Position numbers and translations under genes: made by a program. This document shows positions 21,886 to 38,259 of a DNA stretch of 64,000 bases, one piece after another; the stretch's first letter is position 1; every line of letters begins with the position of its first letter. Below the pieces are notes generated by a model. It did no database searches, was not told where the DNA came from, and saw only the letters and a list, made by a program, of their open reading frames with translations. Origin of the DNA: Clostridia bacterium (GTDB taxonomy: Bacteria; Bacillota; Clostridia; Christensenellales; UBA1242); the NCBI GenBank assembly GCA_017503005.1, contig JAFVTW010000003.1, forward strand, positions 73,807 to 137,806, given 5' to 3'.

Positions 21886-21961
21886 GCTGATGTAGCTCAG
21901 TCGGTAGAGCACTGCCTTGGTAAGGCAGAGGTCACGGGTTCAAGTCCCGTCATCAGCTCCA
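21886..21961 (+). tRNA. tRNA-Thr (anticodon GGU), CCA encoded
   Basis: Acceptor GCTGATG/CATCAGC, anticodon stem CTGCC/GGCAG with loop TTGGTAA, T-arm ACGGG-TTCAAGT-CCCGT. Confidence 0.92.
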
Positions 21962-22063
21962 ATCACAAACCTTTGAAAAACCCTTATAAATAGGTGCTTT
22001 CAAAGGTTTTTTATTTTCTAAAATTTTTGATAAATTTTAACTCAAAAAAACATTAGGTGTCAA
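21916..22063 (+). repeat. Left direct repeat (3' 46 nt of tRNA-Thr plus downstream terminator region), attL-like
   Basis: Matches 36000-36147. The tRNA part is identical; a few substitutions and two 1-nt indels occur downstream. Confidence 0.85.
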
Positions 22064-22177: not shown

Positions 22178-23479
22178 TTATTGTAATATATCCAAATTCA
22201 TTTTATCAAAGAATGATTGAAGTTCTCTTAATGTGGCAGCATTTAAATTTAACTTATGTTGCTCATTAGATATTTTCTTAAAAGCTTCATAAGTTCGAAA
22301 ACTTGCTAAATACGACAGGTATGAATATAAATATATAAATCCATCTCCAAAAAACATGATGTAAGAAGCAAAATTATTCGAAGAGAATAATCTAAATAAC
22401 TTTAATGCAAATGCAAATTGTTTCTCATTTACATCAAACCAACTTTCTGATAAATAACGATTCTCATCAAAATTTTTATCTTCAATTTCTTCTTTCTTGC
22501 CTGTATTAACTTCTTTGATTGTTTCTTCGATAGATTTTATAAATCTAGCAATCATTCCAACGAAGAAATCAGCAAATCTTATCAAAGAACTTTTTTTCGA
22601 ATCTAAACATTTTACTTCAGCATAATTAAAATTGTTTGCTACATTTAAAGTATTGTCTTCATTATCTATAAAGATTTTAGTTTGTGTTTTATCAATACTC
22701 CATTTTAATAAATTCTCATTCAATGATTGAAATGCTATACTATAATCCCAATCTGTTTCTATTTTATCTTCAGCAGAACTAGAATTCTCTAGAATATTTA
22801 CTAAGGAATAAAAACAACGATTTTCACTCCATTTACGTGGAAGCCCATTGTTTTTCTTCAAAATATAATTTAGCTTATTAAGTATCTCTATTCTTGAGTC
22901 TTCAACTGATTTATTTATCAAATCATCAAATATTTCAGTAAATTTGTAAGTATATAAGAACTTGGATAGCGTATATCCAATCACCTGAAAATATGGATGA
23001 ATTTCAATTGGAATCATCAATGCCGACAGAAATCTATAAGTTAATAAACTTGTTTTGCTTAATGCACCAAATAAAAGTTTTGGAGAAACACACAGACATA
23101 AATTGACTATCTCTTCATAAAAACTTAAACAATCTTTATTAAATGAATGCAATCCATCTTTATAATATTTTATTCCAAATGTTGTTGATTTAAATTCTTT
23201 ATCGTTTGGAATACTTAGTTTGCTTTTATATTTTAGCTCTATATTTTCAAATAAATTTGCCAACTTATGATTGTTTATAATGTTGTCTCCAATAAACATA
23301 AAGCAAAAATAATCAGAACTTTGTTCTAAAAAGAAGTTTGTCAGTTCTTTATTTGTTAATTTTCTATCATGGTATATTTCATCATAATAAAATTCGTAAC
23401 AATTGCTTTTTGACAAACAACAATATTTATATTTTTTACCACTTCCACATGAGCATTTATCATTTCTGCCTATATTCAT
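22178..23479 (-). CDS. SEC-C metal-binding motif protein with a large uncharacterised (possibly DUF3800-like) body
   Basis: N-terminal RNDKCSCGSGKKYKYCC. LIRFADFFVGMIARF resembles the DUF3800 C-terminal motif. RBS AAGGAGA. Confidence 0.5.
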   Translation of the reverse strand: MNIGRNDKCSCGSGKKYKYCCLSKSNCYEFYYDEIYHDRKLTNKELTNFFLEQSSDYFCFMFIGDNIINNHKLANLFENIELKYKSKLSIPNDKEFKSTTFGIKYYKDGLHSFNKDCLSFYEEIVNLCLCVSPKLLFGALSKTSLLTYRFLSALMIPIEIHPYFQVIGYTLSKFLYTYKFTEIFDDLINKSVEDSRIEILNKLNYILKKNNGLPRKWSENRCFYSLVNILENSSSAEDKIETDWDYSIAFQSLNENLLKWSIDKTQTKIFIDNEDNTLNVANNFNYAEVKCLDSKKSSLIRFADFFVGMIARFIKSIEETIKEVNTGKKEEIEDKNFDENRYLSESWFDVNEKQFAFALKLFRLFSSNNFASYIMFFGDGFIYLYSYLSYLASFRTYEAFKKISNEQHKLNLNAATLRELQSFFDKMNLDILQ

Positions 23480-23874: not shown

Positions 23875-23903
23875 GAAAAACACCCAATCATTAAGATTGA
23901 GTG
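23875..23903 (-). terminator. Rho-independent terminator ending island operon B
   Basis: On the minus strand: hairpin cactcaatc/gattgggtg followed by a T5 run. Confidence 0.65.
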
Positions 23904-23909
23904 TAATCC

Positions 23910-24113
23910 TTAAAGTATATTATATTTTTTTATTGCTTTTAGAAATAATATAGTTGCTGGCATTCTCAGATCATGTGAAAGCTTACTCATTTTTTCTGCC
24001 ATCTCATCAAAAAGAACTCCCAAATCTTTTAATTCATTTAATTCAGGTGTGGGTAATTTTGTTAATTCAATTGCTTTTCTTTGTATTTCATTTATTAATT
24101 CTTGATCAGTCAT
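23910..24113 (-). CDS. Small helical protein (67 aa), unknown function
   Basis: Start MTDQELINE is preceded by GGAGA with a 4-nt spacer (the track start at 24137 lacks an RBS). Last gene of operon B. Confidence 0.5.
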   Translation of the reverse strand: MTDQELINEIQRKAIELTKLPTPELNELKDLGVLFDEMAEKMSKLSHDLRMPATILFLKAIKKYNIL

Positions 24114-24123
24114 TTTTTCTCCA

Positions 24124-24489
24124 TTAATATTCATCATACTTTTTATTACACCCCTTAACCTTATCAGCCGGGTATTTTTTATCGTTTTTTTCTATTTTGT
24201 TAGAAACTGCCGAACTTAAATCTATGTTGTTCATTTGAGCAAAACGAAGAACAAAATACAAAACATCAGCTAGTTCTTCTTCAACCTCAATTCTCTTATC
24301 TGAACTCATAACTTTTTTCATATCTTCTTCTGATTTAAATCTAAAGATTTGTAAAAGTTCATTTGCTTCAGTTGAAATTCCAATTGCAAGTTCTTTTGGA
24401 TTATGGAATTGATCCCAATCTCTCTTCTCGCAAAATTCTTTAACTTTATTCTTTAATTCTTCTAATGTTACTACTTTATCGTTTATCAT
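24124..24489 (-). CDS. MazG-like (all-alpha NTP pyrophosphohydrolase, dCTPase-type) protein
   Basis: RDWDQFHNPKELAIGISTEANELLQIF and EELADVLYFVLRFA match the MazG/DCTPP1 helix pair. ATGA overlap with the upstream gene. Confidence 0.75.
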   Translation of the reverse strand: MINDKVVTLEELKNKVKEFCEKRDWDQFHNPKELAIGISTEANELLQIFRFKSEEDMKKVMSSDKRIEVEEELADVLYFVLRFAQMNNIDLSSAVSNKIEKNDKKYPADKVKGCNKKYDEY

Positions 24490-25784
24490 AATTTTTCTCC
24501 TAATAACTTAAAAGCTTTACCATTTAATATACCATCTAACATTCCACCAACAGATAAGTCTCCAACAACTATTTCATCAGATGTGTCAAGCACAAACTGA
24601 TTCCTTATTTTTGCATTATCTCTATTTGTTACTTTAAGCATATTATCGAAAGGTGATATAATTAACATTTGTCCACTATTAACAGCTTTTTCAAACTTTG
24701 TCGGGCACTTGTCGTAAATTTCTCTAGACAATACCATAATAATCTTTTTGTTATTCTTTAACGATAAATCTAATAGTTTACTTTCATTTTTACTTTGAAA
24801 ACCAGAAACAATGCAAATATCTTCATCAACAGTTTCTAACCACTCAGTAATTTTACTTATTGTATTGGGATGACTCTTCTGCGAACTCAAAAATCCCATC
24901 TTGTGATTATTTAAAAGTTTTAAATTTCCTATATAATTTTCTTTTTCACTATTAAATGAAAGGTTACAACAGTCACTTGGATTATAGTTAACATGAGTTT
25001 TCCAATAGTTATATGCTTCGGTACAGTCTTCACAAACACTAATTTGTTCAAACCCTTTAATCTTACTAATAAGTTTTTTCTTTGTTTCTAATGGAAGATG
25101 ATAATATCCACCTTCTTTATGAGTATATTGAGAGTAATCTAAATCAAAAGTTCGCTTAATAAAGCCATTTACTCTAAGGAATTCCACAATTACTTTCTTA
25201 CACTTAACCTTATTTAAAATATCAAAATCAATATATTCAGGAATAAACGGACTTACTCTGATTGCAACATCAAAGCCATTGGCTGAAAGTTTTTCAATTG
25301 CTTTAATCCTTTCTGAAGAAATAGTTGCCTGTTCGTAGGTTAAAGCAGTTTTATCATCTGTACTAGTAACGGTTATTTGAATGTGTGCTAAATTTTTATC
25401 TAGAATTTTCATATATTCATCACTAGCAATCAAATTAGATTTAGTAACGATTAAATAATGAATTCCATATTTATTTAAAAATTGAATAGTTTTATATGTA
25501 ACTTTATGTTTTACTTCACAAGGTTGAAAGCAATCTGTCATGCCTCCAAGTCTTAAAACCGTTCCTTTTTCAAGAGTTTTAATCTTTTTTTCAATCTTAC
25601 TAATATCTGCCACACTAGGGTCATCAGGATGCCACAAGTCTCTAAACCCTAAAAGAGACTTTGCATAACAATACTTGCAGTCGTGAAAACAGCCACAACC
25701 ATAAGTGTCTAGTCTTGTGGAATAATGACATTTTTGTCCTTCATTACCTTCAACAGTTTTATAAAAACTTTTAAACTCTTTCAT
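24486..25784 (-). CDS. Radical SAM enzyme (SplB/COG1533-like) fused to C-terminal DprA/Smf-like (SLOG) Rossmann domain
   Basis: CGCFHDCKYCYA (CxxxCxxC), RLGGMTDCFQP and LIVTKS. C-terminal 130 aa (ICIVSGFQSKNESKLLDLSLKNNKKIIMVLSREIYDKCP...GQMLIISPF...KIRNQFVLDTSDEIVVGDLSVGG) follows the DprA pattern. Confidence 0.65.
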   Translation of the reverse strand: MKEFKSFYKTVEGNEGQKCHYSTRLDTYGCGCFHDCKYCYAKSLLGFRDLWHPDDPSVADISKIEKKIKTLEKGTVLRLGGMTDCFQPCEVKHKVTYKTIQFLNKYGIHYLIVTKSNLIASDEYMKILDKNLAHIQITVTSTDDKTALTYEQATISSERIKAIEKLSANGFDVAIRVSPFIPEYIDFDILNKVKCKKVIVEFLRVNGFIKRTFDLDYSQYTHKEGGYYHLPLETKKKLISKIKGFEQISVCEDCTEAYNYWKTHVNYNPSDCCNLSFNSEKENYIGNLKLLNNHKMGFLSSQKSHPNTISKITEWLETVDEDICIVSGFQSKNESKLLDLSLKNNKKIIMVLSREIYDKCPTKFEKAVNSGQMLIISPFDNMLKVTNRDNAKIRNQFVLDTSDEIVVGDLSVGGMLDGILNGKAFKLLGEKL

Positions 25785-25799
25785 CCTTTGTCCTCATAT

Positions 25800-27530
25800 T
25801 TAATTAAAATATTTCTTTAAATACTCATTCATGTTTTGATTACAAGCATAAATGTAGCAGCCTTTTATACCTCTTTCCATCATTACTTTGTAAGAATTAA
25901 TAATATATCTCTTTAGTTCTTCTGGAGAACTTCCTTTTTTAACATTTGTATCGTAAAAGTTATCAGGATATATTAATGTTTGATTGTTTATAGGATCATA
26001 GTCTATTTCTTTTCCTAAAATAACACCAACATAATTCAAATCATAACCTTGAGTGGTGTGAATACAACCAATCTCATTAATAGATTCTTTTCTTAAAATC
26101 CATTCTTTGTTTGTCATATTCCAAGGATAAGTTTTGTTTTCAAATTTAATATCATATAGTCCTTGATTTTTTATTTCTTCTAAAGATTTTCCTTTAGTTT
26201 TCCATTCCCATGCATATCCAGCAACATTCCTACATAACCCATATTTGTCATTAAGTTCTTTTATGCTGTCAATCATTTCATTAGGATCATCAAAAACTTT
26301 AATATCATAATTTTGTATTTGTTCTTTGCTGTCAACAGTACATTTTAGAATTTTATCTAAATAATCAATATAAAGTTTTCCACCTTCACATCTCATTTGA
26401 GAAGTTAAAGTGTACTCTTTAATTTTTGTTCTACTTAATGAATTTTTAAATTCTTCAGGTGAAATATCTGAAGCTTTTATCGATTGTTCTTTATCATAAA
26501 AAAGAATTCTATGTTTACTACTTTTCACAATCCAATCTAATGTATTAGTTGTTTCAGGTTTCATATTAAGCTTTCTACAGCACTTATCAAATTCTCCCAT
26601 CCAACTAATGTTTTTTCTTTTTGGAAGTCTATGGGTTTCATCAACTAATAATATATCAAATTGTTCACCAACAACATCTGTTGGACCAATAACCATTTTG
26701 CTTTTTAAACCGTTGTGACTCTTATTAAAAACAGCTTTAAGCGTTGCTCTTATCGATGTCATTGGCAAAACATAACCAATTTTTAGTTCTCCGTTGTCTT
26801 CAATATACTTTTTAAGTCTATGTAAAATCTTGTTTTTAAAAGTTGCATATTCAAAAGATTCTTCATCTTTAAAGGAATCTATTGTTTGAGAGTTAGCATT
26901 GGTTAACAAACTCATAATATAGATAGCTAAAATAGTTTTACCTGTACCTGCAGATCCATTGATAATACAAGTCGTACCATTCTTAGAATCTTTTTTAAGT
27001 CCATCTAGGATATCCTTAATAACATTATAGCAAACTTCTTCTTGTTCCACAGTTAAAGAAGTATATGGGGAATAGGTAAACAGATCACTATTAACAATTG
27101 ATTCATAAGTAGATTTAGCAAGATTTAAATCTCTTAAATAATCCCATATTCCTTTATTTTCTTCAGATCCTTCAATTTTGTTTAAATATTTTTCCCTTTG
27201 ATAATAGTTGTGTTTTGAAGATTGTCCTGCATTCCCATTTAACAAAGTGAACTTTTGGTCTGCATTACACATTCTAATCAAAGATTGCTCAATATCTAAT
27301 ACTGCAGATTTATTAAATTCATCATCAAAAATAACATGAATATCTTTTAATCCACGCTTTTGCTTATTATCTAAGTGTTGTCCAAATCTATTAAAGAAAT
27401 TACTTGTTTCTCCAATGTACAAATAACTTTTATTGTTAATTAAATAAACAACAGGCCAATCTCTACCTTTTGCTTCATTTAGAACTAAATTTCGTCCTTC
27501 TTGAGAGAAACTAAAACTTTTAATTTGCAT
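25800..27530 (-). CDS. GIY-YIG nuclease domain fused to DUF2075 (Schlafen-type SF1) ATPase
   Basis: GIY-YIG: VVYLINNKSYLYIGETSNFFNRFGQH. ATPase: GSAGTGKT, LLVDETHRL, GYAWEW, IHTTQGYDLNYVGVILG. RBS GGAGA. Confidence 0.7.
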   Translation of the reverse strand: MQIKSFSFSQEGRNLVLNEAKGRDWPVVYLINNKSYLYIGETSNFFNRFGQHLDNKQKRGLKDIHVIFDDEFNKSAVLDIEQSLIRMCNADQKFTLLNGNAGQSSKHNYYQREKYLNKIEGSEENKGIWDYLRDLNLAKSTYESIVNSDLFTYSPYTSLTVEQEEVCYNVIKDILDGLKKDSKNGTTCIINGSAGTGKTILAIYIMSLLTNANSQTIDSFKDEESFEYATFKNKILHRLKKYIEDNGELKIGYVLPMTSIRATLKAVFNKSHNGLKSKMVIGPTDVVGEQFDILLVDETHRLPKRKNISWMGEFDKCCRKLNMKPETTNTLDWIVKSSKHRILFYDKEQSIKASDISPEEFKNSLSRTKIKEYTLTSQMRCEGGKLYIDYLDKILKCTVDSKEQIQNYDIKVFDDPNEMIDSIKELNDKYGLCRNVAGYAWEWKTKGKSLEEIKNQGLYDIKFENKTYPWNMTNKEWILRKESINEIGCIHTTQGYDLNYVGVILGKEIDYDPINNQTLIYPDNFYDTNVKKGSSPEELKRYIINSYKVMMERGIKGCYIYACNQNMNEYLKKYFN

Positions 27531-27559
27531 ATTTTATCTCCAAAATAACTTTTCACCAT

Positions 27560-27600
27560 TCATTATAGCATACTTTTTCTGATTTTGTATGAAAATGCAA
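27560..27600 (-). promoter_or_regulatory. Putative promoter of island operon B (extended -10)
   Basis: Minus strand reads TGCTATAAT (27562-27570), about 30 nt upstream of the ATG and immediately after the kinase terminator. Confidence 0.5.
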
Positions 27601-27631
27601 GAAAAAACTAGCAAATTTAATTTTTGCTAGC
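27601..27631 (-). terminator. Rho-independent terminator ending island operon A
   Basis: On the minus strand: hairpin ctagcaaa/tttgctag followed by a T6 run. Confidence 0.7.
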
Positions 27632-28624
27632 TTATATTAATGTATTAATATCGTCTATAAGTTGATTTATGTGTTGATATCTCTTTTCTAAATCTTCTAT
27701 CGTGCATTTTCTGCATATGGCAGATAATTCATGATTGTAACAATTGGGATTAGCAGTCTTTACATAGTTAATTATTTTACCCATCGAATATATATCGGTT
27801 TGCATATTTGCATTATTTAAATTTCTATAAGCTTTTGGATCTGTATATTCTTCTACACCAACGTGTGGCTCAATAGATATGCAAGAGTGGCTAGTATCAA
27901 TAGATGAAACTCCGAAATCAATAACAAACCAACAACCAGATTTATACATAAAATTCCCAGGATGCAAATCTCGATGAATAATATTAGCATCGTGTAAAAA
28001 TTTTACCTTGTTCAACATGTCTAGTATTTGTAAATTTGTTATTGTAAATTTAAGGTCTTTTGCTTGGTATAGAGAATAATCTGCCTTTTCCATTTTTATC
28101 TCAAAACCATTCGCATTCTCAATATCCTTATTTAATAACATTTTTTGTTTTACGGAATTCTCTAATCTTTTTAATTTTGATATTACACGTTTTTCCCTTT
28201 CAAACGTTTCTAATGCAAATGGTGTTTTATTGTCTAATAACTTAATAACAATAGTTTCATTTTCTTCATTAACAATAAAGACCTCACAAAAACTACCAGA
28301 TTTGGACACCTTCTTTTTCATGTTATAAAAAATTCTATACTTACATCCGCTATAAGACAAAATATTGTTAATCTTTTCATATGCTACATCTCTTTCGTAA
28401 TTATATAAACTTTGTACTAGAGATTCAAAAAAATCATCATATTCCCATTCTTGTAGTTCATTATCAAAGAATCCATCCCAATCTAATTTTTGTTCTAAAC
28501 TCTTTTGTGATAAAAGCTTATTATTTTCATATTTTTGATATAAATTTCTTTGCTCATCTGTTTTCAGTTCTTCTCTTATAAGACCTATTAGAAGGTTTTT
28601 TGTTTCTTTTGTTAAATTAAACAT
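27632..28624 (-). CDS. Ser/Thr protein kinase-like protein
   Basis: IVIKLL (VAIK-like), IIHRDLHPGNFMY (HRD loop), VIDFGVS (DFG). Starts 2 nt after the upstream stop. Confidence 0.75.
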   Translation of the reverse strand: MFNLTKETKNLLIGLIREELKTDEQRNLYQKYENNKLLSQKSLEQKLDWDGFFDNELQEWEYDDFFESLVQSLYNYERDVAYEKINNILSYSGCKYRIFYNMKKKVSKSGSFCEVFIVNEENETIVIKLLDNKTPFALETFEREKRVISKLKRLENSVKQKMLLNKDIENANGFEIKMEKADYSLYQAKDLKFTITNLQILDMLNKVKFLHDANIIHRDLHPGNFMYKSGCWFVIDFGVSSIDTSHSCISIEPHVGVEEYTDPKAYRNLNNANMQTDIYSMGKIINYVKTANPNCYNHELSAICRKCTIEDLEKRYQHINQLIDDINTLI

Positions 28625-28626
28625 AA

Positions 28627-31600
28627 CTATAAATAACCTTCATTATATTCTTCAATTTGCGTTCTTGTTAATTCTTTTCTGTTCCATTGAATATATTGAT
28701 TTATAATAGGCTCATATTCTAACAACTTATTTTCTTTTAGTTTGTTTTTTACATCCAGTAACATGTCATAATTCTTTTCTATGTAATGAACTCTGCTTCC
28801 AGACCAAGAATGAGGACCTCCTGCAATAGGAATTTTAAGTAAAAGTTCTTTTTTACATTTATTGGTCATTAATAAAATAATAAACTTTTTTTGTATATCA
28901 TGCGAGTATTCTTCTACAATTGACATTAATTCAAATAATTTCTCTCTATCATCAATATTACACAATATCAATTCTTCCAATATTTCTATTCGTTGATTTG
29001 TATCTCCGCAAGCCAAAACATGTTCCAAATCAAACCTTGAAAGGATTTTATTATTGAGTAAATATTTACATAGAAATATAATTAAATCCTTCCAATCTTG
29101 TCTTTTCCACAAAAAACGAACATCTATTTGATCCACATTCTTTATATATTCTTTCAAATATTCTTTATCTAAATCAATAATGTAATTTATGAAATTCCTT
29201 TCGTAGTCAACATGATGTTTTTTAGATAACAACCTAAAATATAATTGAATTAAAACATAAATAGATTCTTTATAATAAACTATAGATTTTTGAACTATTT
29301 CTTTATGAAATAGTGTGGAAAACACAAGGCAAATCATATAATTATCTTCATTTAATGCTAGGTTAGTTGATTCAATATAAAAATCATAATTAAAGTCATA
29401 ATATTTGTTTAATCTTAATATTTGATCACATCCTCTAATCACCTTAAGATTTGATGTATTCGAAAATAAATTTAAACATTCATTATAAATAGTTTCATCT
29501 ATTTTATCGGCATAACAAAATACAGAAAATAAATAATTCCATTTATATTCAAAACAGCTTTTTTCAAATAACAACTTAATTTTATTAAATCCATTTTCTT
29601 GTATTAATAGTTCAATAAATTTATCAGAATAAATATAGCAAGAAGAAAATTCGGAATTTAAGAATTTTATTATATCCAATCTTGCACAATCTTTATAGGT
29701 TTTCTGTTCTAATAAAAGATTTATTATTGTTTCAGTCGGTGTTTTATACGATTCAATAACATCACTTGATTGTTTTAATTGTCTTATGATCTTAAAAATT
29801 TTTCTTTTGGTAAGATTCTTTAATTCTTTAGTGATATTGTCATATTTTTCTGGCCATCTATAAGAACTTCGTTCTTGCATATCTAACAATTTTAACGCTA
29901 ATGCTTTTTCTTTGATATGTTTAGTTGAAAACATTTTTTTATTTATTCTTTCAAAATATCTTAGTAAGCTATACTTAAACACTAAACTACTAAATTCTTT
30001 TTCGTTTATTGTATTTAAAAAATTTTGTATTAAAGAAAATTCTAAACTTTCTGTTTTCTTTGCTGTTTTTAAAATAGAATAATGTGTAATGGCTTTGCTT
30101 AATTGTCCCAATTCATTACATGAGCATTGCTTATAAACATCATTAACAATATCCCAAAGCAATTTTCTATAGACTTCAACACCCAAATTCCATCCAAGTG
30201 GAACATTATAAAATGTCAAATTACGGCCATAAGATTCTGTGCTTTCAAAGCAAAACTTACAATGTTTTTCAATAACTTTTATTTTAAAGCACACTTGTCC
30301 ATCTAAAGATTTTAATAGTTTAAGCATTTGATTTTGTGTATCATAATTATTATCAAAAGATTTTTGTGTAACTATATAATTTTCGATTATTAATTTTTCA
30401 ATAGTTTCTTTATATTCTCCAGTAGAATTTTTTAATTCTCTGAATATTAAGTTTGTTGCTTGTTCAGAATAGTCAGTTTCTAAAAAATTTATTAATAGTT
30501 CAACATATTCCTTCTTATTAGATTCTAACTTTTTATCAATAATTTCTAAAGATTCGCTCGGATTAGCCAATTCTAAAGCAGATAAATAAGTAAATAGTAA
30601 TGGGTTATCTTCTTCGTAAAGAATATCTTGAACTCTTTTGATTTCTGATACTAAATACAAATTATTGTTGTAAACATAATTTAAAGAGTTTATGGAATCA
30701 ACTATATTTCCTCTATGCGTTTTTAAAAATTTAACTAGTAAATCTTCTAGTTTTAATATTTTCTTATGAATAAAGACATAATTAAATAAATATGTTCGTA
30801 AAATTTGATCTTCCATTACCGCAATATTATCATCATAGATCAATTTGATAATTTCTTTATTATCCCAATATTGAATGGAATATAAAAAATCTTCCTTTGC
30901 TAATTTGAATGTGTCTAGAATATTATTCAATAATGACTCGTTTTTATCTTTTAAATAAATTTTTTGAAAGAAAGCAAAAATTCCTAGTGTTTTTAATAAT
31001 TTTTCATCTCTTATTAAACTTTCTTCATTTATGTCTTTAAAAATTTTTATAAAATGATTTTCAAGAATATCTTTAATTTCAGGATATGAGTTGTCGGTCT
31101 TTAAAATTGTTCTAGATGCTAATATTGCAAATCTCAAATTCCCTTTAGATACTTTTATAATATAATCAAGATATTTGTCGTTCTGAATATTATATTCTTG
31201 CTTAATGATATTTTTGATTTCATCATTAGTTAAAGACTTTAATTCATAAGTATCAAAATCCATTCTATAAACCGACATGATTGATTTTAATGCATAATCT
31301 CTTACAGTTGCCACAATTTTTATATTATTTTTTTCATGTACAAATTTATTTATTCTATCAAAAATTGACACTCTATTAATATCATCGATTATTAGTAAAT
31401 ATTCAACATCTGTATTAACTAAAAATCTATTAAAATCTTTGCTAATATCAAATGAACTATTATTTAAAACATAAACCTCTCGCTTTGCTCCTTGATTTTG
31501 CCATTCTTCAGCAACTTCTAAAACAAATCTTGTTTTACCATCTCCAGCTTTGCCATATACAATCACTGAACCATTCGAAATAAAATCCAATAGTTTATTT

Positions 31601-32169
31601 TTATCTTCTTCTCTATAATGAAACTTGCAATTATGTTCTTCAGTGAATTGTTTTGACGCTTTATATGACAACAAAGAATTTAAACTTCCATCAGATAAGT
31701 TAATGTTCAACCAATCATTTGCAATAATAGGACACTGCAAATATATTAATTGAGTTAAATCATCTAAGCCAACAAAAATAAAATTAAATCCCTTACCTGT
31801 AACATATTCTAGGATTTCATTTAGTGTTTTAATTTTTATATTTTGGTTACAGCAGAATATGATTTCATGCAAAGCAATTTGCTGTTTCTCAAATTCTTCA
31901 ATACATCTATCTATATCATGTTTAATTTTAGTTTCAATTTTTGAATCTACAGAACATTGTACAGCTATATTTTTTGCATCTGAAACAATAAATATATCGG
32001 GAGTTCCTTTTGTTGTTCTTAATTTTCCATGCTGTACACCAATCTTTTCAATGTGGGTATTACTATTTGTCTTTAATTTACATATATATGGAACCATATC
32101 TCCAATCATTCTTTCAAATCTGACGGGATCTATATTTATTAATGCATTTTCAATTTCAACAGACTTCAC
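28627..32169 (-). CDS. STAND/Avs-like P-loop NTPase, 1180 aa, with restriction-endonuclease-like N-terminus and long helical C-terminal region
   Basis: GTG start with RBS AAGGAGG. N-terminal GTPDIFIV...IAVQCS, Walker A GKAGDGKT, Walker B LLIIDDINR, then about 800 aa of helix-rich sequence. Confidence 0.55.
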   Translation of the reverse strand: MKSVEIENALINIDPVRFERMIGDMVPYICKLKTNSNTHIEKIGVQHGKLRTTKGTPDIFIVSDAKNIAVQCSVDSKIETKIKHDIDRCIEEFEKQQIALHEIIFCCNQNIKIKTLNEILEYVTGKGFNFIFVGLDDLTQLIYLQCPIIANDWLNINLSDGSLNSLLSYKASKQFTEEHNCKFHYREEDKNKLLDFISNGSVIVYGKAGDGKTRFVLEVAEEWQNQGAKREVYVLNNSSFDISKDFNRFLVNTDVEYLLIIDDINRVSIFDRINKFVHEKNNIKIVATVRDYALKSIMSVYRMDFDTYELKSLTNDEIKNIIKQEYNIQNDKYLDYIIKVSKGNLRFAILASRTILKTDNSYPEIKDILENHFIKIFKDINEESLIRDEKLLKTLGIFAFFQKIYLKDKNESLLNNILDTFKLAKEDFLYSIQYWDNKEIIKLIYDDNIAVMEDQILRTYLFNYVFIHKKILKLEDLLVKFLKTHRGNIVDSINSLNYVYNNNLYLVSEIKRVQDILYEEDNPLLFTYLSALELANPSESLEIIDKKLESNKKEYVELLINFLETDYSEQATNLIFRELKNSTGEYKETIEKLIIENYIVTQKSFDNNYDTQNQMLKLLKSLDGQVCFKIKVIEKHCKFCFESTESYGRNLTFYNVPLGWNLGVEVYRKLLWDIVNDVYKQCSCNELGQLSKAITHYSILKTAKKTESLEFSLIQNFLNTINEKEFSSLVFKYSLLRYFERINKKMFSTKHIKEKALALKLLDMQERSSYRWPEKYDNITKELKNLTKRKIFKIIRQLKQSSDVIESYKTPTETIINLLLEQKTYKDCARLDIIKFLNSEFSSCYIYSDKFIELLIQENGFNKIKLLFEKSCFEYKWNYLFSVFCYADKIDETIYNECLNLFSNTSNLKVIRGCDQILRLNKYYDFNYDFYIESTNLALNEDNYMICLVFSTLFHKEIVQKSIVYYKESIYVLIQLYFRLLSKKHHVDYERNFINYIIDLDKEYLKEYIKNVDQIDVRFLWKRQDWKDLIIFLCKYLLNNKILSRFDLEHVLACGDTNQRIEILEELILCNIDDREKLFELMSIVEEYSHDIQKKFIILLMTNKCKKELLLKIPIAGGPHSWSGSRVHYIEKNYDMLLDVKNKLKENKLLEYEPIINQYIQWNRKELTRTQIEEYNEGYL

Positions 32170-32223
32170 TAAGTTCCTCCTTTTAGATTATTTTTTTAGA
32201 TTTCTAATAGATTTTTATTAACA

Positions 32224-35200
32224 TTAATCTATTAACCCATGCTTTTTTAATCGAGACCTAATACCGCCAATTTTTCTTTGATGAATATCTGCTATTTCTT
32301 TGATAGATAATCCTTGTTTAAATTCTTTTATTAGTTGTAAATCTTCCTGTTCTGTCCATCTTTCCCATGCGGAAGGGAAATTTTCATCATGTTGTAACTT
32401 TTCTTTAATTTTAACTTTCTTTTCTAGCTCTAATTCCATAATTTCTTTTATTACATCAATGTCAATATTTAAACTATTTACATTATCGTTAACTCTAACA
32501 GTTGGGTATAACCCACCAGTTTTATAAAGAATATTTTCGCCAACAAGATATTCAATTAAATTAAAGATTGATTTTGTTTTAATTTTGTTTAAACAAGCAT
32601 ACAATTTTTCATTATGTAAACCCGCATCCAACAATTGTTGTGGTTTGTTTCCCTTTAAGAAGTTCGCCAACATTGTTGCACCGTAATATGTTGATCGATT
32701 CATATCTTTACATGCTTGAATTATAATTTTGCAGATATCTAGTTCTGTAATTGAATCATTATTTGAATCACAATTATTTTTTGGAGCGGATTGACCATCC
32801 AGTTCATTGTCTTTATCTTCAGCAATCTTAGTAATGTCCATTGTTTCTTCTTTAGTTGTTTGCTTGTTGGACTGAACATCTGGTTCTAATTCGGTTTCTT
32901 TTTGATTAAAATCTTCAAATTCAATTATTTCATCTTTATCTAAGTTATCGTCATAATCTTTTTGTGATAATGTATTGCTACATCCTGATCCGTCAACTTT
33001 ATAATTTGTACAACCCAAGAAAGGATACTCATTTTTTGTTTTTACAATTAAATAACCGTCTAAACACTCTGTACATTTTTGAATAGACATTTTTCCACCA
33101 ACAAGATTGTTAGATAAAAATCCACATACTTCAGGTTCGTTTGTACATATCCAAAGTGTCATTCCACAACCTTTCTTATGTCTTCTTTGTAAAGGATATC
33201 CACATAATGGGCAAACTTTATTTGTAATAAGACCATGAGCTTCAGGATTTAAATTTCCTTTCAAAACTATGTTTTTATACTCATTCTTAATTTCTAATAC
33301 AAACTGAGAAGGATGTTTTTCTGGTGCAATTAAATATACTCTATTTTTAGTTCTAGTTAAGGCAACATAAAATAATCTTCTTTCTTCAGCATATTCTATC
33401 TCATTGTGTTGTTTAATAACTAATTTCATTACAGGATCATCTTCAATTTTAGAAGGAAATCCATATACAGCATCTTTTGCATTGATAATAATGACATTAT
33501 CATAACCTAAACCTTTAGAACTATGTGCAGTTAAAAATTCAATGTTTACACTTGGATGTTTTATTGATTTAACTTTGCTTCCTCTTGAAAAATACTCAAA
33601 TTTACCTGTTCTAACTAAATTTTCACCATCATAATTATATCTTCCAATTAAAAGTATTTTACTATCTTTTCCATTAGTTTTAATAATTTCCGATATTGCA
33701 TATTCTAAGGCTTCAGCCATTCTATTCAATGGGCCTGATTCCTTTGCCGTTTCATTATATCTCTTCGGAGAATCGTCATAACTTACAACAATAACAGGAT
33801 CATCTATATGCTTTGGTGAAACTAATGTTTTTTTAATCTGAGCATCATTTTTTTGAATAAATCCCCCTGCAATATCAATAACCTCTTGTGCATTTCGATA
33901 GGTGCGAGTAATTTTAAGTTCCTCACCGTAACCCATCTTTTCACAAAATTGTGTAAACAAAGTAACATCTGAACCACTAAACGCAAAAATAGACTGCCAA
34001 TCATCACCAACCGCAATTATTTTAGCATTTGTAACTTTTGACAATTCTTTTGCCATATCAAAGCGCTGTCTTGAAATGTCTTGATACTCATCAATGATGA
34101 TATATTTAAAATCAAGTTTTTGTTTTAAAGAAGCAACTTCTCTTAATGCTCGTGCCGCATCATTTATCATATCTTGAAAATCTACCGCATTATTTCTAAC
34201 TAAGGCCTTTTGGTACTCAAGATAACATTCTCTACAGATTTCTAAAAACAATTTTGTTCTTTCGCTCTTTGTAGTTCTTATAAAGTCATAAAATTGTTCT
34301 TCAGTATATCCATTAACTTTAAAGTTATTTATAAAGTCACAAATTAAATATACCATCTTAGAAACATATTTATTTTCTTGAATTGATGTTAATTTCTCTA
34401 ACACTTCTTGTGATGGTTTAGGATTTAGTTCTATATTATTTTCATTCAGCAATTGTTGTAAATGATCTAAAAGACTTCTTCCATCATTATATTGTGAAAA
34501 GGTATATATAAGTTTTGTATTATGTTTTTTATGTATTAGAATCTTATCGTTTATTGATTTTTTATATTTTTCAAGCTCTTCTTTAGTATATTTATTATTT
34601 TCACCATTTTCAGAAATACCGAAATGCTCTAAATAATATTGTTTTCCGTTTTGTTTAATCAGAAAATCTGGAGTATATCTTTTTTTAGACATAAAGATAT
34701 AATATGGATAATTAGGTTCATATTCGTAATCTATGCCATTTAAATATAGGAAGTTTGCGATTTGTACTTCTTGAGCTGAATTTACTATTTCATTATTTAA
34801 AGTTACTTTTTTATTTGAGTTTTTCTCTACAAAACTATATTGATATTCATTTAAGTTGCTTTTCAATGTAGAAAAGTCTGATTTTACTATATGATTTAAA
34901 AATTCCTGCTTATTGTCACCTTCATATTGACTATCAAAATAACTTCCAAAAAACAAAACTATATTGTCAGCCGATCTTTTGTCTTTCATTTTGTTTAAGA
35001 AATAATCTTTGACAGTATTATATAAAAATCCACCTTCAACAATATTTAATTTTTCATCCGTTTTCTTTCTTAAAATTGCATTTCCCGCAGAGTGAAAAGT
35101 TGTAATTGGACACTCTATTTTCAAGTCTTTGTTTATTTTATCTTTTAACTCACCAACAGCTTTATTAGTAAAAGATATAATCAATATTTGCTTTGGATCT

Positions 35201-35999: not shown

Positions 36000-36147
36000 C
36001 TTGGTAAGGCAGAGGTCACGGGTTCAAGTCCCGTCATCAGCTCCAATCATAAACCTTTGAAAAACCCTGTAAAATCGGGCACTTTCAAAGGTTTTTTATT
36101 TTCTAAAATTTTTGATAATTTTTAACTCAAAAAACATTAGGTGTCAA
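36000..36147 (+). repeat. Right direct repeat: displaced 3' fragment of tRNA-Thr (36000-36045) plus terminator region, attR-like
   Basis: Matches 21916-22063. Upstream flank is unrelated to the tRNA 5' half. Confidence 0.85.
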
Positions 36148-37467: not shown

Positions 37468-38259
37468 TTATTTCTCCTTAAATTTATTAAATGATAATAA
37501 GTCGTCTTTTAGTTGTTGGTCTAGATAAGATATTGCCATTGTCTTGATATCTTCGGGTATGCCATAGTATGCTTCAGCTATTGCACATGATATTGCACAT
37601 AGAGTGTCGCTGTCGCCACCTATAGAAATACTGGTTCTTAGGCAATCTTCGAAACTATCGCTTATCAAGAAACAGTATATCGCTTGAGGTACAGTGTCTT
37701 GACAATGTTCGTTAAATTTGTAGTTTTGCACCAAGTTGTTGTAATCAAAATCTAAATTGTAGTAGTTTTCTTCAATATGTTTTTTGATTTCTTCTTTGGT
37801 TTGTTTTTGTAGAGCTAGCCAAATTGCTATAGCTGTAGCTTCTGCACCTTTTATTCCTTCAGGGTGGTTGTGTGTTACAGCAGTAACCTTGTAAGATAAC
37901 TTTTTGACTTCTTCAATATTCTTAGCGAAATATGCAACAGGACTTACTCTCATTGCTGAGCCATTCCCAAAAGAATTGTATGGTTTTGGATTTTTGTTTT
38001 TTAGCCAAACGGCGAAGTTTCCACCATAACCTCTGCCAGGGTACAGGTCACCATATTTTTGCATTTGTTTTACTGTATTGTTTGATAGATTTAGATATCT
38101 AAATTTTTTTGATTGCTCTAATGCTTTGAAAACAGCAATTGTCATTACTGTGTCGTCAGTAAAGAAACAATTATTCGAGAACAGCGGGAAGTCTTTTGTT
38201 CTAATATTGTTGAATTCGTATATGGAGCCTACTATATCTCCTATGATTGCACCTAACAT
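37468..38259 (-). CDS. ADP-ribosylglycohydrolase (ARH/DraG family)
   Basis: MLGAIIGDIVGS, FTDDTVMT, GNGSAMRVSP, THNHPEG and GGDSDTLCAI match ARH metal and ligand motifs. Confidence 0.8.
   Translation of the reverse strand: MLGAIIGDIVGSIYEFNNIRTKDFPLFSNNCFFTDDTVMTIAVFKALEQSKKFRYLNLSNNTVKQMQKYGDLYPGRGYGGNFAVWLKNKNPKPYNSFGNGSAMRVSPVAYFAKNIEEVKKLSYKVTAVTHNHPEGIKGAEATAIAIWLALQKQTKEEIKKHIEENYYNLDFDYNNLVQNYKFNEHCQDTVPQAIYCFLISDSFEDCLRTSISIGGDSDTLCAISCAIAEAYYGIPEDIKTMAISYLDQQLKDDLLSFNKFKEK

What the first reader, a model, noticed from the sequence alone, without database searches (positions are those of the whole stretch)
23910..27530. Four-gene cassette: GIY-YIG/DUF2075 ATPase + radical-SAM::DprA-like fusion + MazG-like pyrophosphatase + 67-aa protein (candidate undescribed nucleotide-centred defence or DNA-modification system)
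The cassette has its own transcription signals. An extended -10 (TGCTATAAT on the minus strand, 27562-27570) sits right after the kinase terminator (27601-27631), and a hairpin plus T-run terminator sits at 23875-23903. The genes are tightly packed: a 15-nt gap, an ATGA overlap at 24486-24489, and a last gene whose GGAGA RBS lies inside the MazG 3' end. The four genes are: (i) a GIY-YIG nuclease fused to a DUF2075/Schlafen-type SF1 ATPase; (ii) a SplB/COG1533-type radical SAM enzyme fused to a DprA/SLOG Rossmann domain; (iii) an all-alpha MazG/dCTPase-type NTP pyrophosphohydrolase; (iv) a small helical protein. Each theme is known separately in anti-phage biology: viperin-type radical SAM nucleotide chemistry, dNTP-degrading enzymes, and (as I recall) a DprA plus phosphoribosyltransferase system. 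I do not recognise this combination as a named system. It lies in a tRNA-bounded island next to STAND, helicase and kinase genes. My inference is that the radical SAM-SLOG enzyme and MazG make or trim a modified nucleotide, or modify DNA, and that the GIY-YIG helicase acts as effector or discriminator.
Basis: partly seen in the sequence, partly recalled or inferred. Interest (0 to 1): 0.85.

Follow-up and report, generated by a model that had tools for sequence, protein, structure and literature searches.

The report
Nuclease-helicase, MazG, radical-SAM defence cassette
A mobile three-gene cassette in a gut Clostridia genome joins a DNA-cutting helicase of a known anti-phage type to a dCTP-pyrophosphatase-like enzyme and to an unusual DNA-directed radical-SAM enzyme whose close relatives are carried by gut phages and conjugative elements; the partnership appears undescribed and no function has been tested.

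Summary
The genes, domains, spacing, promoter and terminators are as described. The conserved unit has three genes, not four. Homology with a related strain runs only from the promoter to the MazG stop codon (27641-24124, 93.8% nt identity). The 67-aa gene was found in none of the other loci.

The widespread core is the GIY-YIG/DUF2075 nuclease-helicase (A) plus the DCTPP1-like MazG (C). C lies directly next to A in 74 of 96 loci from bacteria and archaea, usually with overlapping or near-touching reading frames. A has the domain plan of Nhi and "Nhi-like", which are validated single-protein anti-phage nuclease-helicases.

The radical-SAM::DprA-like fusion (B) is a rare accessory. It always sits directly after A and occurs in three separate A lineages. 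Its radical-SAM domain folds like spore photoproduct lyase. That domain is 55-70% identical to a stand-alone protein abundant in gut phages and conjugative elements, often beside ParB-like and DNA methyltransferase genes.

The cassette sits in a 14-kb tRNA-Thr island bounded by 69-nt direct repeats.

Verdict: probable defence cassette, a new variant of the Nhi kind. Nothing has been tested experimentally.

The parts
24124..27641 (-). The conserved mobile module: promoter region + A + B + C.
   Evidence: This is the only long stretch shared with the related strain L001 (93.8% nt identity over 3518 nt). Homology ends at the MazG stop codon on one side and just past the kinase stop codon on the other.
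27562..27570 (-). Extended -10 promoter-like element, TGCTATAAT, 31 nt upstream of the A start codon.
   Evidence: Read directly from the sequence. It lies inside the stretch conserved with L001. Function not tested.
25800..27530 (-). [quoted passage not shown] It has the Nhi-like domain plan.
   Evidence: Pfam PF09848 E 3.6e-64; PF01541 24.1 bits. Residues invariant in 41 homologues: Y29, Y38, G40, E41, R48, H52, E81, N98; Walker A G192/G195-K198; Walker B D297/E298. AF2 model pLDDT 84.8. Foldseek matches: Upf1, Dna2, GajB, SLFN11, RecD2.
24486..25784 (-). Gene B, 432 aa: a spore-photoproduct-lyase-like radical SAM domain (aa 1-275; CxxxCxxC = C32/C36/C39) fused to a DprA-like (SLOG) Rossmann domain (aa about 284-432).
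   Evidence: Pfam Radical_SAM E 5.8e-12. Invariant cysteines: C19, C30, C32, C36, C39, C85, C195, C251, C272, C273. AF2 model pLDDT 87.9. Foldseek: SPL 4k9r E 5.4e-9; DprA 3uqz E 9e-7; ShosA 8zva E 1.4e-6. A profile of the family hits DprA 3uqz at E 5.6e-5.
24124..24489 (-). Gene C, 121 aa: MazG-like all-alpha NTP pyrophosphohydrolase of the DCTPP1/RS21-C6 type. Its start overlaps the B stop codon (ATGA).
   Evidence: Pfam PF12643 48.4 bits against a 27-bit cut-off. PDB 4qgp E 3.5e-20; DCTPP1 6sqw E 2.8e-18. Four acidic residues at the expected metal-ligand positions are invariant in 82 of 82 family members.
23910..24113 (-). ORF D, 67 aa. It is probably co-transcribed here, because no terminator lies before it. 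It is a strain-specific passenger, not part of the conserved system.
   Evidence: Absent from all loci fetched with B. Homology with L001 ends before it. Only 13 hits at E<=0.001 in 1.84 billion representative proteins, several of them repeats inside giant proteins. Weak Pfam HNH_repeat hit.
23880..23904 (-). Intrinsic-terminator-like hairpin plus T-run that ends the transcription unit in this strain.
   Evidence: 10-bp stem with 4 GC pairs, followed by TTTTTCATTAA.
21916..21984 (+). attL-like repeat: the 3' part of tRNA-Thr(GGT) plus downstream bases. One boundary of the ~14-kb island that carries the cassette.
   Evidence: tRNA gene at 21886-21961. 69-nt direct repeat with 36000-36068, 98.6% identity.
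36000..36068 (+). attR-like copy of the tRNA-Thr 3' part. The other boundary of the island.
   Evidence: GC is 24-29% inside the island and 31-34% outside.

Best explanation
This is a horizontally mobile three-gene cassette, most likely for defence against phages or other mobile elements. It is built on a widespread two-gene core.

**A, the effector.** A is a GIY-YIG nuclease driven by a DUF2075 SF1B helicase, the same domain plan as the validated Nhi and 'Nhi-like' defence proteins. By analogy with Nhi, it engages ssDNA-rich phage replication or recombination intermediates, then unwinds and cuts them (inferred). About a quarter of its relatives carry a LexA-type S24 self-cleaving domain. This points to RecA-coated ssDNA as a cue for the family (inferred).

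**C, the obligate partner.** C is a catalytically intact DCTPP1-like MazG, tightly coupled to A in most loci. It most likely hydrolyses dCTP or C5-modified dCTP-type nucleotides. That would starve phage replication, or keep phage-type or salvaged non-canonical nucleotides out of DNA (inferred from homology only).

**B, the lineage-specific accessory.** B has a DprA-like Rossmann domain that would place it on ssDNA, and a spore-photoproduct-lyase-like radical SAM domain that would do radical chemistry on a DNA base. Near-identical stand-alone copies sit in phages and conjugative elements, often beside ParB-like and orphan DNA methyltransferase genes. My committed guess is that this chemistry protects DNA: a mark, or the reversal of a lesion. 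In the host, B would then shield self DNA from A. In mobile elements it would act as anti-restriction. This step is the least certain.

**Shown:** gene content, domain identities, intact catalytic motifs, conserved linkage, mobility, island context.

**Inferred:** every biochemical activity and the defence phenotype.
For: Domains:
-.

Linkage:
- A MazG-like gene lies directly adjacent to an A homologue in 74 of 96 loci and within two genes in 5 more. The loci come from gut, rumen, lake, marine, brine and soil metagenomes, from bacteria and archaea.
- 69 of the 74 adjacent pairs are on the same strand, with gaps mostly -4 to +9 nt.
- B lies directly downstream of A in all 10 complete B-bearing loci plus the window. 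These fall in three separate A lineages with two gene orders.
- In L002 the A gene is a 27%-identical paralogue with the same architecture, while B and C stay 72% and 70% identical.

Mobility and context:
- The module has precise boundaries against L001.
- It is inserted in unrelated housekeeping contexts, once next to an integrase.
- It sits in a tRNA-Thr island with 69-nt att-like repeats that also holds a STAND NTPase, an Stk2-like kinase, a UvrD/RQC helicase and a DUF3800 protein.
- SauUSI-type type IV restriction enzymes, NUDIX, Cas1, DNA methyltransferase, Fic/RhuM and GHKL genes are among the neighbours of A+C elsewhere.

Precedent:
- Nhi and Nhi-like are nuclease + DUF2075 anti-phage proteins.
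- DUF2075-GIY-YIG fusions next to modification-dependent restriction enzymes were noted by Lutz et al. 2019, PMC6765204.

B acting on DNA:
- Spore photoproduct lyase is the best structural match, and DprA matches the C-terminal domain.
- An SPL-like radical SAM enzyme already acts on DNA in phage M6 (PMC8989533).

Mobile-element copies of the radical SAM domain:
- 329 stretches in IMG/VR, against 2 for A.
- Immediate neighbours include ParB_N (12), formyltransferase (10), terminases, HNH and DNA methyltransferase genes.
- Copies also lie in the T4SS regions of Firmicutes ICEs.

S24 domain:
- A C-terminal LexA/S24-type motif (G[DE]SM) in 25 of 96 A homologues.
- Pfam confirmed Peptidase_S24 in 3 of 3 extensions tested.
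- N-terminal S24 in P0157, P0170 and P0184.
Against: - No experiment exists for any member, and no defence phenotype is known for this A family.
- A gave no hit to any named Nhi model in PADLOC-DB v2.0.0. I could not check whether that release contains one.
- The neighbour survey is descriptive and has no matched control. Most neighbours are ordinary or unknown genes.
- MazG, NUDIX, the S24 domain and an SPL-like enzyme would fit a DNA-damage or repair module equally well.
- The self-protection role for B is weakened because most A+C pairs have no B. A is therefore not generally dependent on such protection.
- A DprA-like ssDNA binder is an odd vehicle for marking a whole duplex genome.
- DefenseFinder could not be run.
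- The literature search covers open-access papers and bioRxiv only.
Confidence: 0.55

Rival explanations
1. DNA-damage (SOS-type) repair or tolerance module, not immunity. A processes damaged forks or ssDNA gaps. C cleans damaged or non-canonical dNTPs from the pool. B reverses a base lesion or crosslink on ssDNA, as spore photoproduct lyase does, and is delivered by its DprA-like domain. Phages and ICEs carry the lyase to repair their own DNA.
For: - LexA-type S24 domains are fused to about 26% of A homologues.
- C is closest to the house-cleaning enzyme DCTPP1.
- NUDIX (MutT-like) genes recur next to A+C.
- The B radical SAM domain's best structural match is a DNA repair lyase.
- SplB-like radical SAM genes have been linked to SOS operons (PMC3765255).
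Against: - The cassette is patchy and mobile. It has precise module boundaries inside a tRNA island whose cargo differs between two closely related strains.
- Neighbours include a STAND NTPase, type IV restriction enzymes, Cas1 and Fic/RhuM genes.
- The nuclease + DUF2075 plan is that of validated defence proteins.
- A photoproduct-type lesion is not expected in gut anaerobes (inference).
Confidence: 0.2
2. One reading: a nucleotide-centred pathway. B (viperin-like chemistry with a SLOG nucleotide-binding domain) and C (MazG) together make or trim a modified free nucleotide, such as a chain terminator or a signal. A is the effector or discriminator.
For: - Weak PADLOC pVip hit for B (23.6 bits), and a weak hit (E 1.4e-3) to a model labelled SIR2 over B residues 305-386.
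- Viperin structures are among the Foldseek matches (E 6.6e-5).
- SLOG domains elsewhere bind nucleotide ligands (established knowledge).
- In this window the B and C reading frames overlap.
Against: - C partners with A, not with B. Of the 85 loci fetched through A alone, 70 have C directly adjacent to A and none contains B.
- A-B exists without C.
- In the C-A-B gene order, B and C are not adjacent.
- The stand-alone radical SAM in phages and ICEs has no MazG beside it.
- SPL and DprA (DNA enzymes) are much better structural matches than viperin. No ThsA-type SLOG structure appears among the 50 matches listed.
Confidence: 0.08
3. B is offensive rather than protective. Guided to invading or replicating ssDNA by its DprA-like domain, it damages foreign DNA or strips a protective hypermodification from it, so that A can cut. 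C removes the corresponding modified dNTP precursors. The whole cassette would then be aimed at phages with modified bases.
For: - DCTPP1-type enzymes prefer C5-modified dCTP (established knowledge; homology).
- Type IV modification-dependent restriction enzymes of the SauUSI type and NUDIX genes recur next to A+C.
- SPL chemistry cleaves a C5-methylene bridge (established knowledge).
- An SPL-like enzyme rearranges C5 substituents on phage M6 DNA.
Against: The same radical SAM domain, at 55-70% identity, is carried by hundreds of phage and ICE contigs next to DNA-modification genes. That is hard to reconcile with an activity harmful to mobile-element DNA, unless the direction or the target differs.
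Confidence: 0.1
4. There is no functional system beyond A+C. B is a gene of mobile-element origin that happened to land in these operons, and the fusion has an unrelated role.
For: B is absent from most A+C loci. Its radical SAM domain is clearly of the family found in mobile elements.
Against: - B is always immediately downstream of A, in three separate A lineages and two gene orders. It stays with a GIY-YIG/DUF2075 gene even where A has been replaced by a 27%-identical paralogue.
- The DprA-like fusion turned up only in or beside such cassettes or their remnants: and the L212 remnant. The one exception is a 39%-identical stand-alone copy in another defence-like locus, L211.
Confidence: 0.07

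Closest known systems
Nhi (S. epidermidis SERP2475; Bari et al. 2022) and 'Nhi-like' (Millman et al. 2022)
   Same: Both have one polypeptide with an N-terminal nuclease and a DUF2075 SF1B helicase. The nearest structures are also shared: Upf1 and Dna2. By analogy, A would work as an ATP-driven nuclease-helicase on phage replication intermediates.
   Different: - The nuclease here is GIY-YIG, whereas Nhi has PD-(D/E)XK.
- No sequence match to a named Nhi model was seen.
- Nhi works alone. A is almost always coupled to a MazG-like gene, and here also to a radical SAM-DprA fusion.
- No phenotype has been tested.
DCTPP1 / RS21-C6 all-alpha dCTP pyrophosphatase (MazG-like family PF12643)
   Same: C matches at E 2.8e-18 over its full length, and the acidic metal ligands are conserved.
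   Different: C is prokaryotic and operon-coupled to a nuclease-helicase. Its substrate is unknown. No defence system in PADLOC-DB v2.0.0 contains it.
Spore photoproduct lyase (SplB) and the phage M6 gp53 radical SAM isomerase
   Same: SPL is the best structural match of the B radical SAM domain (E 5e-9). These are the known radical SAM enzymes that act on DNA. M6 gp53 is also SPL-like.
   Different: - Only 16-18% identity to SPL.
- No sequence-level hit to SPL.
- Far below the cut-offs of the COG1533-type NCBIfam models.
- Seven extra invariant cysteines.
- No 5-hmdU kinase or aGPT-Pplase genes were seen among the neighbours examined.
- Fused to a DprA-like domain.
DprA/Smf, and the DprA-like proteins of PsyrTA, ShosTA and DprA-PRTase systems
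   Same: The Rossmann (SLOG) domain matches DprA 3uqz and ShosA 8zva by structure, and PsyrA in PADLOC at E 3.9e-8.
   Different: There is no phosphoribosyltransferase partner gene. The SAM-like N-terminal and winged-helix C-terminal domains of DprA are absent. The fusion to a radical SAM enzyme appears in no paper I could search.
Restriction-modification systems with orphan modification genes on phages
   Same: The distribution has the same logic: a nuclease gene sits next to a DNA-directed enzyme, and close homologues of that enzyme ride alone on phages and ICEs beside orphan methyltransferases.
   Different: There is no methyltransferase. The chemistry would be radical SAM. The nuclease family mostly occurs without the putative modifier. 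Nothing has been shown biochemically.

Membership tests
Nhi / Nhi-like nuclease-helicase defence | Single protein with an N-terminal nuclease domain followed by a DUF2075 (PF09848) SF1B helicase | tested here: met
   PF01541 GIY-YIG at aa 27-63 plus PF09848 at aa 187-563. Catalytic residues are invariant. SF1B structural matches. The nuclease class differs from Nhi's PD-(D/E)XK.
Nhi / Nhi-like nuclease-helicase defence | Sequence homology to the validated Nhi or Nhi-like proteins | tested here: inconclusive
   No model named Nhi is among the PADLOC hits at E<=0.01; the best hit is AbiO, over the P-loop only. I could not confirm that PADLOC-DB v2.0.0 holds an Nhi model, and I had no Nhi sequence to align.
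Nhi / Nhi-like nuclease-helicase defence | Acts alone as a single-gene system | tested here: not met
   A MazG-like gene is adjacent in 74 of 96 loci, and B is present as well in this lineage.
Nhi / Nhi-like nuclease-helicase defence | Protects against phage infection | not testable with these tools
   Needs cloning and phage challenge.
Radical SAM superfamily | CxxxCxxC cluster motif and the Radical_SAM core | tested here: met
   C32/C36/C39 are invariant in 45 sequences. PF04055 scores 46.5 bits against a 29.5-bit cut-off.
Spore photoproduct lyase (SplB) and COG1533-type families PA0069 / Rv2578c | Score above the family's curated cut-off, or a sequence-level match to SPL | tested here: not met
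   rSAM_PA0069 scores 74 bits against a 360-bit cut-off; Rv2578c scores 40 against 430. There is no sequence hit to SPL in the PDB. The similarity is structural only: E 5e-9, TM 0.44-0.54.
Prokaryotic viperin (pVip) | Specific match to pVip models, with the viperin fold as the best match | tested here: not met
   pVip scores 23.6 bits over the generic core. Viperin is at Foldseek E 6.6e-5, behind SPL at 5e-9.
DprA/Smf (PF02481) | DNA_processg_A Rossmann domain | tested here: inconclusive
   The window protein scores 21.2 bits, below the 29.6-bit cut-off. Many homologues carry precomputed PF02481 hits. A profile of the family hits DprA 3uqz at E 5.6e-5. The structure hits it at E 9e-7. It is a DprA-like domain, not a full DprA.
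PsyrTA / ShosTA / DprA-PRTase toxin-antitoxin defence | DprA-like protein paired with a phosphoribosyltransferase toxin gene | tested here: not met
   No PRTase domain was found in A, B, C, D or the flanking genes.
MazG-like / DCTPP1 (PF12643) | Score above the family cut-off, with conserved acidic metal ligands | tested here: met
   48.4 bits against a 27-bit cut-off. DCTPP1 at E 2.8e-18. The E/E/E/D positions are invariant in 82 of 82 members.
Classical restriction-modification | DNA methyltransferase paired with a nuclease | tested here: not met
   No methyltransferase domain was found in the cassette or in the island genes scanned.

The most novel reading that the evidence does not exclude
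The SPL-like radical SAM domain installs, or maintains, a previously unknown radical-SAM-dependent mark on DNA. That mark serves as a self label. B would be the 'modification' arm and the GIY-YIG/DUF2075 protein the 'restriction' arm of a restriction-modification-like system that has no methyltransferase. The hundreds of stand-alone copies on gut phages and conjugative elements would be orphan modifiers used as anti-restriction.
Probability: 0.2. Interest if true: 0.9.

Novelty: new variant of a known kind. Interest (0 to 1): 0.62.

Why it matters
- **A new partner for a known defence type.** If the core pair is defensive, a very widespread partnership has gone unnamed. The pair occurs in bacteria and archaea. 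It would tie direct DNA attack by an Nhi-like enzyme to control of the dNTP pool.
- **A link to RecA signalling.** The LexA-type S24 fusions suggest a RecA-ssDNA trigger that can be tested.
- **A possible third DNA-acting radical SAM enzyme.** The radical SAM family is abundant in uncultured gut phages and ICEs and has no characterised member. Spore photoproduct lyase and phage M6 gp53 are the DNA-acting radical SAM enzymes named in the paper I read. This family would be a further case and possibly a new DNA modification in the gut mobilome.
- **A tractable entry point.** The host-encoded fusion to a DprA-like domain, locked next to a nuclease-helicase, gives a genetic handle on that chemistry.

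Tried and rejected
- **Named defence systems.** PADLOC-DB v2.0.0 gave only partial or generic hits for A (AbiO P-loop; PDC-S14 over the N-terminal nuclease region, residues 16-109; PDC-S41 over the C-terminal end). B hit PsyrA, pVip and SIR2 weakly. C and D gave nothing.
- **NCBIfam.** Nothing for A. B is far below all cut-offs.
- **PHROGs.** Only an unknown-function family for B and pyrophosphatase families for C.
- **Literature.** No papers for DUF2075 + radical SAM + defense, DUF2075 + MazG, Schlafen + MazG + anti-phage, or Nhi + MazG. One irrelevant paper for MazG + defense island + helicase. The 'bacterial Schlafen' papers, by their abstracts, concern the Schlafen RNase domain; I did not check them for the DUF2075 helicase.
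- **Sequence search of the PDB with B.** No radical SAM hit.
- **Cultured phages and plasmids.** The radical SAM family is essentially absent: one metagenomic 'Bacteriophage sp.' at 57% identity, and plasmid hits of only about 30% identity to 'radical SAM mobile pair protein B' or PA0069.
- **BFVD fold search.** No informative named viral relative.
- **Word-index search with the SLOG domain alone.** Only 7 hits, mostly fragments.
- **D as a fourth component.** Rejected.
- **Viperin-like assignment of B.** Rejected.
- **PsyrTA/ShosTA membership.** Rejected, because there is no PRTase.

Full report
**1. What is in the sequence**

- A, 27530..25800, 576 aa.
- B, 25784..24486, 432 aa.
- C, 24489..24124, 121 aa.
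- D, 24113..23910, 67 aa.

The spacing and signals also hold:
- The A-B gap is 15 nt, and B and C overlap by ATGA.
- TGCTATAAT lies at 27570-27562, 31 nt before the A start codon.
- Terminator-like hairpins follow the upstream kinase gene (27633-27605) and D (23904-23880). The region has 10 such sites against 1.7 +/- 1.3 in shuffles.
- One detail is off. The GGAGA before D lies just after the MazG stop codon, not inside the gene.

**2. What the proteins are**

*Protein A*
- A carries a DUF2075/Schlafen-group-3 helicase domain (PF09848, E 3.6e-64) after a GIY-YIG domain scoring 24.1 bits.
- In 41 homologues of 49-88% identity, the GIY-YIG catalytic set is invariant (Y29, Y38-G40-E41, R48, H52, E81, N98). 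So are Walker A (G192, G195-K198) and Walker B (D297, E298).
- An AlphaFold model (pLDDT 84.8) matches SF1B helicases: Upf1, Dna2, GajB, SLFN11 and RecD2.

*Protein B*
- B has the radical SAM core (E 5.8e-12), with CxxxCxxC at C32/C36/C39 and seven further invariant cysteines.
- Its model (pLDDT 87.9) matches spore photoproduct lyase best over residues 1-275 or so (4k9r, E 5.4e-9).
- The C-terminal 150 residues match DprA (3uqz, E 9e-7) and ShosA (8zva). Viperin is a much weaker match (E 6.6e-5).
- A profile of the family hits pneumococcal DprA by sequence at E 5.6e-5.

*Protein C*
- C is a MazG-like enzyme (48.4 bits against a 27-bit cut-off) of the DCTPP1/RS21-C6 type (6sqw E 2.8e-18; 4qgp E 3.5e-20).
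- Four acidic residues at the expected metal-ligand positions are invariant in 82 of 82 family members.

*Protein D*
- D has no family. It gave 13 weak-to-strong matches in 1.84 billion representative proteins, several of them repeats inside giant proteins.

**3. The unit has three genes and it moves**

- The window comes from a Christensenellales-type gut bacterium. Locus L001, a MAG of that order, encodes A, B and C at 96-99% protein identity.
- At the nucleotide level the two share only 27641-24124 (93.8%) and a 211-nt stretch at the island end. The long block is the promoter plus A, B and C, and it ends at the MazG stop codon.
- D, the kinase, the STAND NTPase and the DUF3800 gene are not shared.
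- D was detected in none of the loci fetched with B.
- The cassette occurs in unrelated settings elsewhere: between a glycoside hydrolase and ddl, after an integrase between ftsZ and spoIIGA, and in a Bacteroidaceae MAG.

In the window it lies in a 14.1-kb island:
- The 3' part of tRNA-Thr(GGT), 21916-21984, is repeated at 36000-36068 (69 nt, 98.6% identity).
- GC inside the island is 24-29%, against 31-34% outside.
- The island also encodes a UvrD/RQC helicase, a STAND NTPase, an Stk2-like Ser/Thr kinase and a DUF3800/SEC-C protein.
- L001 has a tRNA-like fragment (36 nt, 89% identity) beside the shared island end. Its cargo is different: DUF5677, an SF1 helicase and a GHKL ATPase.

**4. The real core is A plus MazG**

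- Four A homologues of 48-56% identity, from bacteria and a methanogen-related archaeon, all had a MazG-like gene beside them and no radical SAM gene of the B family.
- I then fetched 80 metagenomic loci with an A profile. These were 39-52% identical to A and came from gut, rumen, lakes, sea, brine and soil.

| Position of the MazG-like gene relative to A | Loci (of 96) |
|---|---|
| Directly adjacent | 74 |
| Within two genes | 5 |
| Absent | 11 |
| Absent, with A at a contig edge | 6 |

- Of the 74 adjacent pairs, 69 are on the same strand and 58 have C upstream of A. Gaps are mostly -4 to +9 nt.
- MazG-like genes are few per genome, so this adjacency cannot be chance (inference).
- Other neighbours are very diverse: 503 proteins with few recurring clusters.
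- The recurring neighbours are NUDIX hydrolases and SauUSI-type PLD-helicase-DUF3427 type IV restriction enzymes (PADLOC mREase_IV, E 3e-231).
- Scattered Cas1, C5 methyltransferase, Fic/RhuM, GHKL and integrase genes also appear. This fits defence islands but is not a controlled enrichment test.
- About a quarter of A homologues (25 of 96) carry a C-terminal LexA-type S24 motif. Pfam confirmed Peptidase_S24 in 3 of 3 extensions tested. Others carry the domain at the N-terminus.

**5. B is a rare accessory, but it is tied to A**

- B occurs only in loci close to the window's. None of the 85 loci fetched through A alone has it.
- It lies directly downstream of A in all 10 complete B-bearing loci and in the window. 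L004 and L006 are cut at contig ends.
- In a neighbour-joining tree of A, the B-bearing loci fall in three places:
  - a clade with order A-B-C or A-B;
  - a clade with order C-A-B;
  - L002 on its own.
- In L002 the A gene is only 27% identical but has the same GIY-YIG/DUF2075 plan, while B and C are 72% and 70% identical.
- Repeated association with the same kind of partner argues for a functional link.
- L038 and L039 have A-B without C.

**6. Where B's radical SAM domain comes from**

- Residues 1-275 are 55-70% identical to a stand-alone protein of about 280 aa. The first search returned 4751 proteins at E<=1e-5, including the roughly 60 full-length fusions.
- It is found in Bacteroides, Hungatella, Enterocloster, Ruthenibacterium, and in Victivallales and Alphaproteobacteria MAGs.
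- In isolates it sits in a conserved conjugative-element region between VirB4-like and VirD4-like genes.
- In IMG/VR it gave 329 confirmed stretches, whereas A gave 2.
- Its immediate phage neighbours are ParB_N proteins (12 of 106), formyltransferases (10), terminases, HNH nucleases and DNA methyltransferases, plus single cases of a TET-associated glycosyltransferase and a PAPS reductase.
- In phages that part of the genome usually holds DNA-modification and anti-restriction genes (established knowledge).
- The family is missing from cultured phages and from plasmids, so no member has been characterised.

**7. How it most likely works**

- A has the domain plan of Nhi (PD-(D/E)XK + DUF2075) and of the 'Nhi-like' protein of Millman et al. 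Both are validated single-protein anti-phage defences.
- From my own knowledge of the published version, not re-checked here, Nhi degrades phage replication intermediates.
- Lutz et al. had already noted DUF2075-GIY-YIG fusions and DUF2075 genes next to modification-dependent restriction enzymes.
- I therefore read A as the effector. The S24 fusions in its relatives suggest RecA-coated ssDNA as a cue.
- C is intact in every pair. By homology it is a dCTP or modified-dCTP pyrophosphatase. It would either starve phage replication or keep non-canonical nucleotides out of DNA.
- B should act on DNA. Its best structural relative is a DNA lyase, an SPL-like enzyme already acts on phage M6 DNA, and its second domain is the ssDNA-binding fold of DprA.
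- Near-identical copies ride on phages and ICEs beside orphan methyltransferases. The simplest reading is that the chemistry protects DNA. B would shield host DNA from A, and mobile elements would use the same enzyme as anti-restriction.
- This last step is inference and is weakened by the many A+C pairs that lack B.

**8. Rivals**

- A DNA-damage or repair module fits the S24, MazG, NUDIX and SPL themes. It fits poorly with the mobility and island context.
- An offensive role for B against phages with modified bases fits the type IV restriction, NUDIX and DCTPP1 theme. It does not explain why phages carry the same enzyme.
- A hitch-hiking B is made unlikely by its repeated, position-specific association with A.

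**9. Novelty and limits**

- No PADLOC-DB v2.0.0 model names the combination. Neither does any paper in the searchable library.
- The cassette is best filed as a new variant of the Nhi kind, with two undescribed partners.
- Every activity and the defence phenotype are untested.
- The neighbour survey has no control. DefenseFinder could not be run. Subscription-only literature was not searched.

Noticed in passing
window 21916-21984 and 36000-36068: There is a 69-nt direct repeat (98.6% identity) of the tRNA-Thr(GGT) 3' part. It bounds a ~14.1-kb low-GC island whose cargo is entirely defence-like. No integrase ORF was seen inside. The related strain L001 has a tRNA-like fragment beside the shared island end, with different cargo.
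   Followed up: partly
L146, L149, L151, L153, L154, L160, L162, L163, L172, L176-L183, L185-L188, L194, L200-L202, L208 (A homologues); also P0157, P0170, P0184: About a quarter of GIY-YIG/DUF2075 homologues carry a LexA/UmuD-type S24 peptidase domain. It is C-terminal in 25 of 96 loci and N-terminal in some database proteins. This suggests a RecA-dependent self-cleavage switch.
   Followed up: partly
L043, L046/L047, L132, L141/L145/L150, L143, L157: SauUSI-type type IV restriction enzymes (PLD + helicase + DUF3427), often with a NUDIX gene, recur immediately beside the A+MazG pair. This may be a larger module aimed at modified DNA.
   Followed up: partly
L052-L055, L060-L063, L066-L067 (viral contigs); L007, L009 (Bacteroides): In one group of Bacteroides-type phages, the stand-alone radical SAM gene follows a P-loop ATPase/GNAT fusion (384 aa) and a formyltransferase-like gene (239 aa). 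This could be a small DNA- or nucleotide-modification operon.
   Followed up: no
L016-L027 (Hungatella, Enterocloster, Ruthenibacterium, Bittarella and other isolates): The stand-alone radical SAM gene lies in a highly conserved conjugative-element block. It sits between a VirB4-like ATPase and DUF5697, DUF6100 and a VirD4-like coupling protein.
   Followed up: partly
P0044 (483 aa): This chimeric protein joins the first ~45 residues of the GIY-YIG protein directly to a full B. It looks like a deletion of nearly all of A that kept B intact.
   Followed up: no
L212 654-3678: Variant locus. A 134-aa DprA-like remnant (86% identical to the B C-terminus, with no radical SAM part) is followed by MazG. 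After that comes a different 712-aa DUF2075 protein whose 240-aa N-terminus has no Pfam match.
   Followed up: partly
L211 37-2406; window 22178-23479: A stand-alone DprA-like protein (39% identical to the B C-terminal domain) sits next to DUF3800 and Abi_2 genes. A DUF3800/SEC-C gene also flanks the cassette in the window. This may be coincidence or a further link.
   Followed up: no
window 27632-35694: Upstream in the same island lie an Stk2-like Ser/Thr kinase (PADLOC Stk2, E 1.9e-24), an 1180-aa STAND NTPase and an 1156-aa UvrD-like helicase with an RQC domain. These may form one or more further defence systems.
   Followed up: no
window 37468-38259 and 39774-40682: Just outside the island are an ADP-ribosylglycohydrolase gene and a second, unrelated radical SAM gene (Radical_SAM + Radical_SAM_C). 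They are probably housekeeping.
   Followed up: no
window 23910-24113: The 67-aa ORF D resembles a unit that is repeated up to 18 times inside giant proteins (P0248, 1894 aa). It weakly matches the Pfam 'homing endonuclease associated repeat'.
   Followed up: partly
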